Part shown: one piece after another, positions 57,193 to 60,713 of the stretch | How the letters are laid out: each line of letters starts with the position of its first letter | How positions within the stretch are numbered: position 1 is the first letter of the stretch | Assembly (NCBI RefSeq): GCF_009914755.1 | Contig: NC_060928.1 | Reading direction: 5' to 3' (one strand) | DNA length: 64,000 bases | Source: the human T2T-CHM13v2.0 reference genome, Homo sapiens | The notes under the pieces: generated by a model | What the model saw: the letters and a program-made list of their open reading frames with translations, nothing else | The model's database searches: none | What the model was told of the DNA's origin: nothing | Translations under genes and position numbers: made by a program

Positions 57193-57499
57193 AGCCTGTT
57201 AGCCCACGGATGGTGAAAAGATGGAGTGCGCAATGGAGCTCCAGGCTTACTGTCTGCAGTTCCCAAAGTGTGCTATGGGACCCTTTGGTGGATGTAGGTA
57301 TGAAAGATAATTTTGGGTGGTGCAGGGTGAATAATTTCAGTTTACATAATAATGTAAGTTCACAAGCTTCCTGGGGAACCTAGTGACATGAAGGCACTGC
57401 AGAGCCTCCCCAGAAGAGGTGTCAGCTTTTGGTGGATCCTTGAGCCCAGGAAGGCAATAGGCGAGACATCACCGTTCACCAGAAAACACGATCAAAATC

Positions 57500-58902
57500 C
57501 ATTGAGGAAGGGCAGCAGTCAAAGGTTTTATTCTCTAGAAGGAACTCTCAAGAACTGCAAGCAGCAGGCAGAAGACTTCCTTGCATGTGTGGTTAGGCGA
57601 TGGTGACCTACGGTTTTCACTGCGAACTGGGATCGAGTGACCCGACCTCCTACTCATGCACCTCTCTCCCTGTCTCTCTCTGCCTTTTAGTCTCTCTTCC
57701 TATTTCTCTCCCTACTCTTCCTCTCAGGCTCCTCTGTCTCTCTCCCCATCTCTCTTCCTCTCTCTCTATCTCACTCCCTTCTCCCCATCTCTTTCTGTCT
57801 CCTTCTTCTCCACTTCTGTCTCCCTCCTCCTCTCCCTCTCTGCAGCTGTTCAGGCAGGACTCCTAGGCCACCTTTCAGGGTACCTGCAGGGCAGCAGGAC
57901 CTTGGCCCCCATCTCCCAGCACCCTCAAGGTCAGGGGTGTGCGCCTTTCCATGCTCTCCTGGGTGGGCACCCCACACTCCAGGAAGCAGAAGCTGCAGGT
58001 CACTGCTGACTCGAGTGGCACACCGACGGGGTGCTTCCACTTGTAATTGTGACTTCCATCTTGTGATCTGCTGAGGTCAAAGCAGAGGACACATGCTCAG
58101 GCCGGACCCTGCACCAGGGTGGGGGTAGGGGTGGGTTCGGGGGTAGAGGCGGGGATGGCAGCAACCACTGCAAACTGTCCCCTGGCCGGCTTCCTGTCCT
58201 TCACCTGCCATGCAAGGCCCCCTCTCCCGCCCCTCCCCCCGCCTCCCACCACCTCCACCCCTAGGCAGCCCCAGACCCCGGCTCCAGAATTCCCCCTGGA
58301 TCCAGGAACTAAGAGCAACCCATGGGCTCTGCAGCCCCTAGGCCAGGTGTCAGCTGCCCCTGCTGCATGCTGAAAAACCTTGGCTCTCACTTATGCCCCG
58401 ACCCAAGCCAGCCACACACCCCCAGCGTAACCACCTTCTCCTGACTTTAGCCCTGACATCCCTGCTTTCTAGTAATCCCCAGCTCCAGGCAAGCCCGAAG
58501 GCCAGCACCCTACACTCACCCTTCCTGGGTGCCACTCTTGTCTGCTTGCCAAGATGTCTTGATCTGGCTTTATCAGCATAGAACAAATAAAGGGCCTCTC
58601 CCAGGAAGGTTTGGCAAAACACTCTCCATTTAGAAGCAGGGGCAGTGACAAGACCTAGGGATGACCCGAGGTTTGCCACTCAAGCAGCAAGAAGGGCAAG
58701 GAGCCAGTTTCATGTCCTCATCCTGGAAGGATGGCCAGGGCTCCACAGGGTCCTGTGGGGGGCTGGCAGGAGCAGATCTGCCCTCCTCTTGAGGAAGCAG
58801 GCCACCACCACCAGGAAGCAACAGATGGTAGCGTACAGGTAGAGCCCCCACGTGCTGTAGAGCAGGGCCAGCAGATCTGCACTCAGCCCAGCCCCAGGGG
58901 AG
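57500..58902 (-). pseudogene. Unprocessed partial TNFRSF13B (TACI)-like pseudogene: exon 4 homolog 58722-58902, intron, exon 5/3'UTR homolog ~57500-58067
   Basis: Translates to [35 protein letters not shown] (TACI as I recall it: [35 protein letters not shown]) and TCSFCFLECGVPTQES / PDLEGAGRWG (TACI: TCSFCFPECRAPTQES / PDPTCAGRWG). GA-rich 3'UTR and AATAAA at 57527-57532. Frameshifts present, and the exon-4 donor reads ATGAG. Confidence 0.85.
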
Positions 58903-58923
58903 CTGCAAGACAGACTGAGACCC

Positions 58924-59265
58924 CGATAGGTTTGGCTCTGTGTCCTGACCCAAATCCCATCTTGAATTGTAATCCTCATGTGTCAAGGGAGGAACCTAGT
59001 GGGAGGTGATTGGATTTGGAGGCAGTTTCCCCCATGCTGTCCCCCTGATAGTGAGTGAGTTCTCAGGAGAGCTGATGGTGTTAAAATGTGGCACTTTCTC
59101 ATTTTCCACTCACTGCCTCCTGCCGCCTTGTGAAGAAGGTGCTTCCTCTTCACCTTCTGCCATGAATGTAAATTTCCTGACTTGTGAGTCAATTAAACCT
59201 CTTTCCTTTATAAATTACCCAGTCTCAGGCATTTCTTTATAGCAGTGTGAAAACAAACTAATACA
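58924..59265 (+). mobile_element. THE1 solo LTR
   Basis: (c)gataggtttggctctgtgtcc...gcagtgtgaaaacaaactaataca; 5-bp TSD gaccc at 58919-58923 and 59266-59270. Confidence 0.9.
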
Positions 59266-60094
59266 GACCCCTTCTCTGAAGTGTCTTCTCCTTGGGCCAT
59301 CAGCTGCCCCCATGCTCTTCCTCTGCCCCATGGTCTTCCTTTTCCCCTCATTCGGCCCAAGTGCTCCACATGGCCAGCCCCAGCCCCATCCTACTGCAGG
59401 CCTGTCTGGCTGGTGGAGAGGCTGGGCTCCTTTCCTGACCCCAAGGATGGCTGACATGCTCTTTGGATCTTGGAGGAAACTGACCTCCCACCCTCATACT
59501 GGTAGCAACTTCTTCCAAGACCCCAAAGCTGGACCATATGAGCTAGTCTTTTTTGTTGTCTTTGCTTGCTAGGGCTGTCATTGGGACAGGCCTTGCCCAG
59601 GAAGCCCATGTGGACCGCGACACCAGGCCCTGCCCAGACCCATCATGACTAAGAGGGAGGTCGGGAGATACCCCCGCTGCAACATGGGCACCTGCATCTG
59701 GCCCCGTTGGTGGCCAGTGACTGGCATGCCTGGAAGGAGCCAGGGTAGCACCCCACCAGCTGCCCCGCAGCCCCAGACACCTTGGAAAATCCTGTTCAAT
59801 GGGAAGCTGGTTTCATTAAGGCCATGAGAGAGAAAGGTGAGCATGGTATCCCTGCAGCCCCGGCCAGCCAGCAGCATGCCCTGGGGCCTCTGTCCCAAAC
59901 TGTGCCCCTCTCTTCCCAGGGCCTAGACCCCGGCCCTGGGAAGAGAGGGGCACTAGGGGTGTGGTGGGCTCCCAGCTGCAGTCAGCATGACCATGCAGGG
60001 GACCCTGGCACTGTGGAGCTCTGTCATTGTCACAGTTCACCTCGCAGAAGCTGGGTGAGATCCTGAAGCCTTGCAGCCACTGCTATAGCCACAG

Positions 60095-60630
60095 CAGGGG
60101 CTGAGATTGGCTTTCACTGCACTGAGCCACAATGTGGACATGGACTAGCTCGCCCTACAGTGCACACAGCACTGCTTCCAACCAGGGCACCCCGTTCACA
60201 GCTAGGGACGTGCAGCAGTGTGCTCCCACCTTGAAGCCTTGGCTCTGCCACCTCTACTTGGAATGTTCTCAGTTCCTTCCAGGCTTCTAGAACCATCTGG
60301 GCCAGGGCTTATGGTTGGATAAGCACCCGAGGTCCCACAACCCAAACAAGCTTCCGATCCTCGTTTTATTTTTTGTTAAACTTATGAAAATTTATTAAGA
60401 TATGACTTACATCCCTGCATGTAAGTGTTCAGCTCAAAAGTCATTCAAAGATAGAACACACCAGCCCCCAGATCACAAAGCCAACCATGCCCAGCCCCTC
60501 CCAGTGCCCCTAGTCCTGCAACCAGTGTTCTGAATTCTGACAGCATTGTGAGCCTGCCTTTTGTACTTTACACTCATGGAAGTATAACCACCTTCCTGTT
60601 TTAAAATAAATGTTTACTTTTGAAATGATT
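60095..60630 (+). pseudogene. TBC1D3-like terminal-exon fragment (C-terminal coding relic plus 3'UTR with AATAAA)
   Basis: 60165-60290 encodes [41 protein letters not shown], resembling the TBC1D3 tail [41 protein letters not shown]. Followed by TBC1D3-like 3'UTR and aataaa at ~60605-60610. Confidence 0.8.
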
Positions 60631-60713
60631 TTAGAAATACACCTTCCATCCAGCTGCCCCTAATAATGACATTTTGCATTACCATGGCACATTTGTCAAA
60701 ACTAAGAAATTTA

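What the first reader, a model, noticed from the sequence alone, without database searches (positions are those of the whole stretch)
57400..60712. Old duplicated block joining TACI (TNFRSF13B) exons 4-5 to a TBC1D3-like last exon, upstream of MAP9
Seen: a sharp switch to GC-rich DNA. The minus strand encodes a TACI-like transmembrane exon (58722-58902), an intact acceptor (ctttgacctcagcag|ATCAC at 58067), a TACI-like cytoplasmic tail, a GA-rich UTR and AATAAA with no poly(A) tract. About 1.2 kb away, on the opposite strand, lies a TBC1D3-like C-terminus and 3'UTR, again without poly(A) and followed by ordinary L1/Alu flank. Known: TNFRSF13B lies at 17p11.2 beside a TBC1D3-family pseudogene (TBC1D27P), and TBC1D3 is a core duplicon of chr17 segmental duplications. 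Inference: this is a DNA-level, internally rearranged transposition of an ancestral TACI-TBC1D3 neighbourhood into the MAP9 region. It appears too diverged for standard >90%-identity segmental-duplication tracks, and it may preserve an early state of the TBC1D3 duplicon.
Basis: partly seen in the sequence, partly recalled or inferred. Interest (0 to 1): 0.85.

Follow-up and report, generated by a model that had tools for sequence, protein, structure and literature searches.

The report
Old chromosome-17 duplication relic near MAP9
This is a decayed, non-functional, roughly 40-million-year-old copy of a chromosome 17 duplication block (the TBC1D3 unit, which carries a built-in fragment of the immune receptor gene TACI) that landed beside MAP9; the TACI fragment it shares with TBC1D3 copies points to where that gene family arose.

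Summary
Window 57356-59593 holds TACI (TNFRSF13B) exon 5, intron 4, exon 4 and part of intron 3 on the minus strand. Window 60097-60712 holds a TBC1D3-type C-terminus and 3'UTR on the plus strand.

The interpretation needs correcting in three ways:
- **The TACI/TBC1D3 pairing is not special to chr4.** The same antisense TACI piece lies upstream of TBC1D3-type genes on chr17 and chr1. Six of six copies that keep the region share one identical junction.
- **The 1.2 kb spacing on chr4 comes from a chr4-specific deletion.** A 12-bp microhomology deletion (59582-59593) removed the ~11.7-13.8 kb gene body. The break "near 60090" is a ~430-bp deletion at 60097-60101, not an inversion.
- **The block is far larger than the finding.** It runs from window 52870 to at least 68000. 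It is a mosaic of chr17-derived pieces (YWHAE 3' region, TACI, TBC1D3 unit, flank) collinear with chr17:28.355-28.381 Mb, at K2P 0.14.

The block is CpG-depleted, has no open frame and lacks the TBC1D3 promoter region, so it is a dead relic. RefSeq already lists the TBC1D3 part as a pseudogene.

The wider point seems undescribed in the searched literature. The TACI relic ties the founding of the TBC1D3 duplicon to the TNFRSF13B-TBC1D27P interval at 17p11.2.

The parts
52870..56057 (-). Leftmost duplicon of the block. It is DNA collinear with chr17:1251323-1253801, which I take to be the YWHAE 3' region from recall. It holds the RefSeq pseudogene YWHAEP4 (55840-56037). The left edge abuts a (TA)n array at 52786-52867.
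   Evidence: Identity to chr17:1.25 Mb is 81-85%. Identity to chr17:28354883-28356750 is 86-92%. Identity to chr17:31951690-31954059 is 82-87%.
56056..56797 (.). Interspersed repeat copy that lies in register with chr17:31492811-31493556.
   Evidence: The in-register copy is 80% identical over 742 bases. Many other genomic copies match at 68-79%.
56784..56920 (.). Alu fragment that is absent at the matching place of chr17:31.4935 Mb.
   Evidence: The chr17 copy has 24 bases where chr4 has 212.
56930..57355 (-). DNA derived from the flank downstream of the TACI poly(A) site.
   Evidence: 79% identity to the true TACI locus (chr17:16884117-16884477). 86-87% identity to chr17:5.018 and 60.89 Mb copies.
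57355..57356 (.). Deletion junction J1. About 0.54 kb (versus TACI) to 1.3 kb (versus the chr17:5.02 copy) is missing here on chr4.
   Evidence: The two alignments abut with a 1-base overlap.
57356..58067 (-). TACI exon 5 relic. Cytoplasmic tail coding runs about 57875-58067. The GA-rich 3'UTR is at about 57640-57850. AATAAA is at 57527-57532.
   Evidence: DNA is 65-73% identical to TACI. The protein alignment has 27 of 60 identical residues, with later frame loss.
58068..58721 (-). TACI intron 4 relic.
   Evidence: The region 58379-58924 aligns to the TACI locus at 76%. Retention of an intron excludes a retrocopy.
58722..58902 (-). TACI exon 4 (transmembrane) relic. It is frameshifted and its donor reads AT instead of GT.
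   Evidence: 31 of 51 residues are identical to true TACI exon 4. ORFs are and sequence.
58925..59333 (.). Interspersed LTR-like repeat (MaLR-type by recall). It sits inside the TACI-derived piece, is absent from true TACI, and is present in family copies.
   Evidence: TACI has 14 bases here. The family alignments run through it. Nine dispersed genomic copies at 78-81% are listed.
59334..59593 (-). TACI intron 3 relic.
   Evidence: 78% identity to the TACI locus and 84-86% to family copies.
59582..59593 (.). Deletion junction J2. A 12-base microhomology, TGGGACAGGCCT, marks where about 11.7-13.8 kb was lost. The lost DNA held the founding TACI/TBC junction, the promoter region and nearly all TBC1D3 exons.
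   Evidence: The left and right alignments to chr17:28.36 Mb overlap by these 12 bases. Both sites exist in that copy, 13.8 kb apart.
59594..60096 (+). Segment present in old family copies and in TBC1D27P but deleted from the young TBC1D3/USP6 clade. Its first ~420 bases also resemble about 25 dispersed loci at 67-76%.
60097..60101 (.). Deletion junction J3. A 5-base microhomology, GGGGC, marks where about 415-430 bases were lost.
   Evidence: The alignments to chr1:15.43 and chr17:28.36 overlap here. Part of the lost piece exists in TBC1D27P.
60097..60290 (+). TBC1D3-type C-terminal coding relic (about the last 60 codons), with one frame change.
   Evidence: RefSeq LOC100420289 spans 59685-60287 (hub table).
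60291..60712 (+). TBC1D3-type 3'UTR, with AATAAA at 60605-60610.
60713..61016 (+). Alu shared in register by the family copies.
   Evidence: It starts at the same base in 4 of 4 aligned family copies. TBC1D27P differs at this point.
61017..62124 (+). 3' flank of the duplicon.
   Evidence: 84% identity to chr17:28.3726-28.3746. It also matches chr1:15.43 and chr17:42.18.
62125..62495 (.). LTR-like repeat inserted on chr4 after the copy was made.
   Evidence: It is absent from chr17:28.3746. At least 35 dispersed copies at 84-87% are listed.
62496..64000 (+). Further flank of the block. It runs on beyond the window to at least coordinate 68000.

Best explanation
Window 52870 to at least 68000 is an old copy of a mosaic duplication block that was assembled on chromosome 17 and then copied to 4q32.1. 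Its left edge lies 1.1 kb from the MAP9 start.

**Composition, left to right:**
- a piece of the YWHAE 3' region
- an interspersed repeat
- the TBC1D3-type unit
- its 3' flank

**The TBC1D3-type unit carries a TACI relic in every copy examined.** The relic is an inverted 3.5 kb piece of TNFRSF13B (3' flank, exon 5, intron 4, exon 4, part of intron 3). It lies antisense, directly upstream of a TBC1D27-like gene. It is left over from one founding rearrangement at the TNFRSF13B-TBC1D27P interval in 17p11.2.

**What happened on chr4 (inferred order):** the block arrived at about the time of the early anthropoid radiation. It then lost DNA through three microhomology deletions:
- J1: 0.5-1.3 kb
- J2: the whole gene body, with the founding junction and promoter region
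- J3: about 430 bp

It also gained an LTR and an Alu and decayed.

**Shown directly:** the homologies, the shared junction in other copies, the three junction sequences, the extent of the block, the lack of open frames and the CpG depletion.

**Inferred:** the direction chr17 to chr4, the date, and the lack of function.
For: **Family membership**
- Window 57400-59593 aligns end to end at 79-80% to seven places on chr17 and chr1, but only in pieces at 73-78% to true TACI.
- The LTR-like insert at 58925-59333 is shared with the family and absent from TACI.
- The tree of the TACI-derived piece was rooted on true TACI (18 rows, 1896 of 2388 columns). It places chr4 inside the family among early branches, with an end branch of 0.093.
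- The 3' tree was rooted on TBC1D27P (10 rows, 1196 of 1495 columns) and agrees.

**One founding event**
- Eight copies were examined, and six keep the region. All six join TACI-locus position 9636-9650 to TBC1D27P position 3195-3255, inverted.
- At 17q12, nine of nine 3' ends listed lie 11.72-11.75 kb from a TACI-derived piece listed.

**Native neighbourhood**
- The TACI-CRD2 exon is at chr17:16894929-16895045.
- TACI exons 4-5 are at chr17:16885000-16886900.
- A full TBC1D3-like gene at chr17:16863800-16881254 is 67-78% identical to TBC1D3. That is about the same divergence as the TACI pieces show, 72-82%.

**Chr4-specific deletions:** junction overlaps of 1, 12 and 5 bases.

**Extent and mosaic:**. 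Every identified source piece maps to chr17.

**Age**
- K2P to chr17:28.36 Mb is 0.141 over 8797 sites, and 0.126 at non-CpG sites.
- The Alu is in register in 4 of 4 family copies.

**No sign of function**
- CpG o/e is 0.17 over 57600-60300, against 0.93 at the MAP9 promoter.
- The frames are broken.
- The RefSeq table lists only a pseudogene here.
Against: - The founding TACI/TBC junction itself is deleted on chr4. Descent from the inverted architecture therefore rests on orientation, the shared LTR insert and the trees.
- The basal forks of both trees are short (0.005-0.02) and several are drawn open, so the exact sister copy is unresolved.
- No other species could be examined. Age and direction are inferred, and the calibration (human-marmoset divergence about 0.11-0.12) is recalled.
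- Identification of the 17q12 copy as TBC1D3 rests on four things: position, the RefSeq label of the window's own relic, the recalled C-terminus, and a single weak RabGAP-TBC hit (1 of 67 ORFs, 17.1 bits, below the 25.2 cut-off).
- Expression and chromatin data were not available, so exaptation is not excluded.
Confidence: 0.88

Rival explanations
1. A piece of the ancestral TACI-TBC1D27 neighbourhood was moved directly to chr4 and rearranged there, so chr4 holds a unique chimeric junction and an early state of the duplicon.
For: TACI and a TBC1D3-like gene are true neighbours at 17p11.2. The chr4 copy branches early.
Against: - chr4 is closer to family copies (79-88%) than to TACI (65-79%).
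- It shares the family's LTR insert.
- The same orientation of TACI piece and gene is seen in all copies, with one junction in 6 of 6.
- The chr4 juxtaposition is made by a deletion between two sites that lie 13.8 kb apart in a sister copy.
Confidence: 0.04
2. Chimeric retrocopy. Spliced TACI and TBC1D3 transcripts were reverse-transcribed and inserted.
For: Both relics end near AATAAA signals.
Against: Intron 4 and intron 3 DNA are kept. Homology continues about 1 kb past the TACI poly(A) signal and more than 7 kb past the TBC1D3 one. There is no poly(A) tract.
Confidence: 0.01
3. Reverse direction. The mosaic first formed on chr4 and was copied from there to chr17:28.36 Mb.
For: chr4 and chr17:28.36 share the longest collinear stretch, and each has lost a different part. 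The trees do not polarise the pair.
Against: - All component duplicons have their older or parent copies on chr17: the YWHAE region at 1.25 Mb, TACI and TBC1D27P at 16.87-16.89 Mb, and flank relatives at 16.75, 18.41 and 20.43 Mb.
- Parts of the same mosaic also occur at chr17:31.49 and 31.95 Mb.
- A chr4 origin needs several extra inter-chromosomal moves.
Confidence: 0.06
4. The relic has been taken over as a regulatory element or non-coding RNA of the MAP9 region. This is compatible with the origin given above.
For: The block begins 1.1 kb from the MAP9 start (hub table) and is GC-rich.
Against: CpG o/e is 0.17, so there is no CpG island. RefSeq lists its only functional element at 51216-51645, outside the block. 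The divergence from its paralog (K2P 0.14) is of neutral size.
Confidence: 0.08

Closest known systems
Orphan TBC1D3 paralogs and pseudogenes scattered on chromosome 17 (Guitart et al. 2024, PMC11610581, passages read)
   Same: They have the same duplicon, with the TACI-derived upstream piece, 3' exon, UTR, shared Alu and flank. They are old and diverged, and mostly lack an open frame.
   Different: [quoted passage not shown] It has lost the whole gene body and is 77-88% identical, below the level at which duplication maps work.
TNFRSF13B-TBC1D27P interval at 17p11.2 (gene names recalled; location tested with Pfam TACI-CRD2)
   Same: It is the source of both kinds of sequence seen in the finding. 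Its divergence from the family is similar for the TACI part (72-82%) and the gene part (67-78%).
   Different: There the two genes lie in tandem on one strand with about 2.9 kb between them. In the family the TACI piece is inverted and joined within about 200 bases to the gene's 5' region. True TACI also lacks the LTR insert.
USP6, the TBC1D3-USP32 fusion gene (name for chr17:5.02 Mb recalled)
   Same: It carries the same TACI-derived upstream piece and the same founding junction.
   Different: It is a young clade member with an intact gene body. It has its own deletion of the transmembrane exon and LTR insert.
Core-duplicon mosaic blocks of human segmental duplications (review PMC6920530, passages read)
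   Same: A core element (TBC1D3) is flanked by unrelated duplicons picked up in successive rounds.
   Different: This one is inter-chromosomal, ancient and degraded, whereas described TBC1D3 blocks are intrachromosomal and at least 90% identical.

Membership tests
TBC1D3-type duplicon copy (unprocessed, DNA-level) | Homology to TBC1D3 genomic DNA outside exons (flank, shared Alu, intron-like DNA) | tested here: met
   Window 60096-61264 is 77-88% identical to nine copies. The Alu is in register in 4 of 4 aligned copies.
TBC1D3-type duplicon copy (unprocessed, DNA-level) | Antisense TACI-derived piece with the family's LTR insert, upstream of and in the same relative orientation to the gene's 3' end | tested here: met
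TBC1D3-type duplicon copy (unprocessed, DNA-level) | The founding junction (TACI intron 3 joined to the TBC1D27-like 5' region) | tested here: inconclusive
   The junction is present in 6 of 6 other copies that keep the region. On chr4 the region is deleted by J2.
TBC1D3-type duplicon copy (unprocessed, DNA-level) | RabGAP-TBC coding exons | tested here: not met
   The gene body is absent between 59593 and 59594. Only about the last 60 codons remain.
Segmental duplication by the usual operational rule (at least 1 kb at 90% identity or more; rule recalled) | Identity of 90% or more | tested here: not met
   BLAST identity is 77-88%. Substitution-only identity is 85-89% and K2P is 0.141. Only 54301-54760 reaches 92%.
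Processed pseudogene (retrocopy) | No introns, a poly(A) tail, and extent limited to the mRNA | tested here: not met
   Intron 4 and intron 3 DNA are kept, there is no poly(A), and the flanks are shared.
TNFRSF13B (TACI) gene copy | Cysteine-rich ligand-binding domain (Pfam TACI-CRD2) | tested here: not met
   The only genome hit is chr17:16894929-16895045. None is in the window.
TNFRSF13B (TACI) gene copy | Transmembrane and cytoplasmic exons with an open frame and working splice sites | tested here: not met
   Homology is present (31 of 51 and 27 of 60 residues), but exon 4 is frameshifted, its donor reads AT, and the tail loses frame.

The most novel reading that the evidence does not exclude
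The inverted TNFRSF13B exon 4-5 relic marks the birthplace of the TBC1D3 core duplicon as the TNFRSF13B-TBC1D27P interval at 17p11.2.

- **Where the relic is found:** in the chr4 block, both chr1 copies, USP6 and the 17q12 genes.
- **One founding junction:** the copies that keep the region all share a single junction, so they descend from a single inverted rearrangement there.
- **Open question in print:** Guitart et al. 2024 report looking for the ancestral simian paralog and finding no consistent candidate.
- **What the off-chromosome relics add:** the copies on chr4 and chr1 would be the earliest dispersals. They give fixed, non-converting time points for dating the family's first burst.
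- **A further possibility:** the TACI-derived DNA forms the roughly 4.5 kb just upstream of every TBC1D3-type gene examined, so it may contribute to their regulation.
Probability: 0.55. Interest if true: 0.6.

Novelty: new member of a known kind. Interest (0 to 1): 0.4.

Why it matters
For the chr4 locus itself, little changes. It is a dead relic, and RefSeq already lists part of it as a TBC1D3C pseudogene.

The value lies in what the relic shows about the family. TBC1D3 is a much-studied primate gene family linked to cortical expansion. Its point of origin is reported as unresolved (PMC11610581, passages read).

- **A marker of origin:** a fragment of a conserved single-copy gene (TACI) sits inside the duplicon, with one shared junction. 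This is a simple marker of where and how the founding event happened. It can be checked in any primate assembly.
- **Wider spread than described:** old family copies lie outside chromosome 17 (chr4, chr1, probably chr19 and chr6). They fall below the identity threshold of duplication maps, so the early history of the family is wider than described.
- **Annotation:** YWHAEP4 and LOC100420289 are parts of one mosaic block of at least 15 kb, not independent pseudogenes.

**Literature searches.**

| Search terms | Papers found |
|---|---|
| TBC1D3 + TNFRSF13B | 1, unrelated |
| TBC1D3 + TACI | 0 |
| TNFRSF13B + segmental duplication + 17p11.2 + pseudogene | 2, unrelated by title and abstract start |
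| LOC100420289 | 0 |

Subscription papers are not in that library. Paulding 2003 and Hodzic 2006 could not be read, so earlier mention cannot be excluded.

Tried and rejected
**Tried without a useful result**
- **Pfam scan of the 17q12 reference copy.** I scanned 67 plus-strand ORFs to confirm the TBC domain exon by exon. Only one weak RabGAP-TBC hit came back (E 0.0044, 17.1 bits, below the cut-off). The exons are too short for this test.
- **Pfam check of YWHAEP4.** The name rests on the hub table.
- **Paulding et al. 2003** was not held under its PMC id or its DOI.
- **Right edge of the block.** Sequence was also not fetched for the chr19 and chr6 relatives, the chr17:18.33 and 20.50 Mb arrangement, or more than one dispersed locus.

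**Considered and rejected**
- **A founding event that postdates an Alu.** TBC1D27P has Alu sequence about 30 bases from the family's Alu site, but it starts in mid-Alu. Orthology is therefore not shown. Only the family's own radiation is shown to postdate the Alu.
- **WKILFNGKLVSLRP (window 59780-59827) as the counterpart of TBC1D3's WRFLQWNSMPRLP.** This was rejected, because the orthologous place in chr17:28.36 is a different, non-coding stretch.
- **The retrocopy model, the chr4-specific chimera and the chr4-to-chr17 direction** are treated under the rival explanations.

**Filters used in the scripts**
- BLAST pieces under 60-250 bases were dropped, with the threshold depending on the call.
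- In one search, pieces under 78% identity or under 150 bases were also dropped, to remove Alu hits.
- The five 17q12 copies with a truncated TACI piece were not put in the trees.

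
Full report
**1. What is at the coordinates**

The window switches from AT-rich DNA (GC 0.19-0.45 between 54.6 and 56.8 kb) to GC 0.54-0.65 between 57.6 and 60.3 kb.

On the minus strand, 58722-58902 reads [41 protein letters not shown]. 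I translated the true TACI exon from chr17, and 31 of 51 residues match.
- The frame shifts after FLKRR.
- The exon's acceptor AG is kept, but its donor reads AT where TACI has GT.
- The exon 5 relic keeps TCSFCF.EC..PTQES (27 of 60 identical).
- The GA-rich UTR and an AATAAA (minus strand, 57527-57532) follow, without poly(A).

On the plus strand, 60126-60290 ends ...[14 protein letters not shown], against ...[14 protein letters not shown] in a 17q12 copy. A 3'UTR with AATAAA at 60605-60610 follows.

**2. What it matches in the genome**

I searched the window's own assembly, where the window is chr4:158658001-158722000 of a complete human genome.
- 57400-59593 aligns end to end at 79-80% to seven places: chr17 at 38.91, 37.13, 37.34, 37.44, 42.19 and 28.62 Mb, and chr1 at 245.95 Mb. 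It aligns partly to nine more places.
- It aligns only in pieces, at 73-78%, to chr17:16885061-16886869.
- That last place is true TNFRSF13B. The single genome hit of Pfam TACI-CRD2 (87.9 bits) lies 8 kb further along the same strand, at chr17:16894929-16895045.
- The 409 bases at 58925-59333 are an interspersed LTR-like repeat. True TACI lacks it (14 bases there) and the family copies carry it.

**3. The family architecture**

I used one 17q12 copy (chr17:38905000-38924999) as the reference. Positions 1443-5921 of that copy are TACI 3' flank, exon 5, intron 4, exon 4 and about 1 kb of intron 3, all antisense. Positions 6113-17985 are the TBC1D3 gene in sense.

The true TACI locus continues, about 2.9 kb past that flank and on the same strand, into a full-length TBC1D3-like gene at chr17:16863800-16881254. 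I take this gene to be TBC1D27P, a name from recall. It is 67-78% identical to TBC1D3. The TACI pieces are 72-82% identical, which fits one joint origin.

I examined eight copies. Six keep the junction region, and all six join TACI-locus 9636-9650 to TBC1D27P 3195-3255 in inverted orientation. This indicates one founding rearrangement.

At 17q12, each of the nine gene 3' ends listed lies 11.72-11.75 kb from a TACI-derived piece listed. Four of those pieces have exons 4-5, and five have only the intron 3 part. These tables score only the best candidates, so the counts are lower bounds.

**4. What is special to chr4**

In all other copies the TACI piece and the 3' exon are 11.7-14.4 kb apart. 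On chr4 they are joined at 59582-59593. The left and right alignments to the chr17:28.36 Mb copy overlap by the 12 bases TGGGACAGGCCT, and both sites exist in that copy 13.8 kb apart. This is a microhomology deletion. It removed the founding junction, the promoter region and all TBC exons except about the last 60 codons.

Two more chr4-only deletions were found:
- J1 at 57355/57356, removing 0.54-1.3 kb, with a 1-base overlap.
- J3 at 60097-60101, removing about 415-430 bases, with the 5-base overlap GGGGC. It is not an inversion.

The stretch 59594-60096 belongs to a segment of about 0.9-1.1 kb. The old copies and TBC1D27P have this segment, and the young TBC1D3/USP6 clade has lost it.

**5. 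True extent**

The finding is the middle of a much larger block.
- **To the right:** chr4 stays collinear with chr17:28.372-28.381 Mb up to at least window coordinate 68000, the end of what I could fetch. A chr4-only LTR insert sits at 62125-62495. The Alu at 60713-61016 is in register in 4 of 4 aligned family copies.
- **To the left:**
  - 56930-57355 is TACI 3' flank DNA.
  - 56056-56797 is a repeat in register with chr17:31.4928 Mb.
  - 52870-56057 is collinear with chr17:1251323-1253801 at 81-85%. I take that place to be the YWHAE 3' region from recall, and the stretch includes RefSeq's YWHAEP4. It also matches chr17:28354883-28356750 at 86-92% and chr17:31.952-31.954 Mb.
- **Left edge:** 52870 abuts a (TA)n array and lies 1.1 kb from the MAP9 start.
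- **The chr17:28.36 copy** has its own deletion of the equivalent of window 54760-58541.

Since every component has its parent or older copies on chr17, the mosaic was most likely built there and then copied to 4q32.1.

**6. Placement and age**

Both trees put chr4 in a near-star group of early branches, outside a well-supported young clade.
- The TACI-derived tree was rooted on true TACI, with 18 rows.
- The 3' tree was rooted on TBC1D27P, with 10 rows.
- The early group holds chr1:245.9, chr1:15.43, chr17:42.18, chr17:28.36, chr17:28.62 and chr17:31.50.
- The young clade holds 17q12, chr17:5.02, and the 18.34/20.50 and 60.9/63.1 copies, with 99-100 support.
- The chr4 end branch is 0.069-0.093, and the basal forks are short and partly unsupported.

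K2P between chr4 and chr17:28.36 is 0.141 over 8797 aligned sites, and 0.126 without CpG sites. From recall, human-marmoset neutral divergence is about 0.11-0.12. That places the copy near or just before the split of Old and New World monkeys. This fits the report that the family is confined to simians (PMC11610581, passages read). The shared Alu shows that the radiation is of primate age. Whether the founding event also postdates an Alu is not shown.

**7. Function**

No evidence points to function.
- CpG o/e is 0.17 across 57600-60300, against 0.93 at the MAP9 promoter.
- Both coding relics are broken.
- The promoter region of the TBC1D3 unit is deleted.
- Divergence is of neutral size.
- RefSeq lists only pseudogenes here.

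I read the block as a dead relic. Exaptation cannot be excluded without expression and chromatin data.

**8. Comparison with what is known**
- RefSeq already marks 59685-60287 as a TBC1D3C pseudogene, so the TBC1D3 part is known at annotation level.
- Guitart et al. [quoted passage not shown] They find none in mouse lemur, and they state that they found no consistent candidate for the ancestral simian paralog.
- The review PMC6920530 (passages read) derives TBC1D3 from USP6NL and does not mention TACI.
- No held paper links TBC1D3 with TNFRSF13B or TACI. LOC100420289 appears in none.
- Older subscription papers could not be read.

**9. Verdict**

This is one more old, gutted member of the TBC1D3 duplicon family inside a chr17-derived mosaic. 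It is ordinary as a locus.

The by-product may be new. A built-in, inverted TACI relic with one shared junction ties the founding of the TBC1D3 duplicon to the TNFRSF13B-TBC1D27P interval. It can be tested directly in primate assemblies.

Noticed in passing
window 52870-56057: RefSeq's YWHAEP4 (55840-56037) is the tip of a 3.2 kb stretch. That stretch is collinear at DNA level with chr17:1251323-1253801 (81-85%), chr17:28354883-28356750 (86-92%) and chr17:31951690-31954059 (82-87%). It belongs to the same duplicated block as the TACI/TBC1D3 relic and is not an independent pseudogene. I did not test whether the chr17:1.25 Mb match includes intron or flank.
   Followed up: partly
window 52786-52867: A (TA)n array of about 43 units lies exactly at the left edge of the duplicated block, 1.1 kb from the MAP9 start.
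   Followed up: no
L021+L022 (chr17:38905000+) position 16831/16834 versus L031 (chr17:28364000+) 7613-8530: The young TBC1D3/USP6 clade lacks a segment of about 0.9-1.1 kb that the old copies and TBC1D27P have. The loss lies inside what is now their last coding exon, between ...SCWV and ISQEDQ..., so the modern C-terminus reads across an old deletion.
   Followed up: partly
L046 (chr9:109324800-109327499) and about 25-40 similar loci on chr1, 2, 3, 4, 8, 9, 11, 13, 14, 18, 20, 21 and 22: In these dispersed, mostly pericentromeric loci, the DNA upstream of TBC1D27P plus TBC1D3 positions 6094-6679 is joined within about 80 bases to the segment matching window 59621-60003, in the same order and orientation. 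They are either internally deleted relatives of the gene or 'empty sites' into which the roughly 10 kb gene body was once inserted. This is unresolved.
   Followed up: partly
chr19:19875343-19888139, chr6:29403384-29406685, and about 20 loci on chr2, 9, 13, 14, 15, 18, 21 and 22: The gene body of TBC1D27P has relatives off chromosome 17:
- a nearly full-length one on chr19 (71% over 4.4 kb, with matching upstream DNA 11.3 kb from the 3' segment)
- one on chr6 (68%)
- a 2.4 kb fragment repeated at 75-76% in pericentromeric and acrocentric DNA

The family is wider than chromosome 17.
   Followed up: no
chr17:18332949-18338934 and chr17:20501100-20508332: In these two copies, the native spacer between TACI and TBC1D27P (82-92% identical) lies inverted next to the flank end of the TACI-derived piece. 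This may preserve an intermediate of the founding rearrangement.
   Followed up: no
L025 (chr1:15427000+) 3125-12106: The chr1:15.43 Mb copy is collinear with chr4 from 57521 to 63548. It has its own, different internal deletion of 8.9 kb (reference positions 3850 to 12774), so gene-body loss happened independently.
   Followed up: partly
window coordinates 67044-68000 (L043 3044-4000, beyond the window): From here the chr4 block is also 84% identical to three 17p11.2 places (chr17:16.754, 18.410 and 20.428 Mb), besides chr17:28.380 Mb. This suggests yet another duplicon in the mosaic.
   Followed up: no
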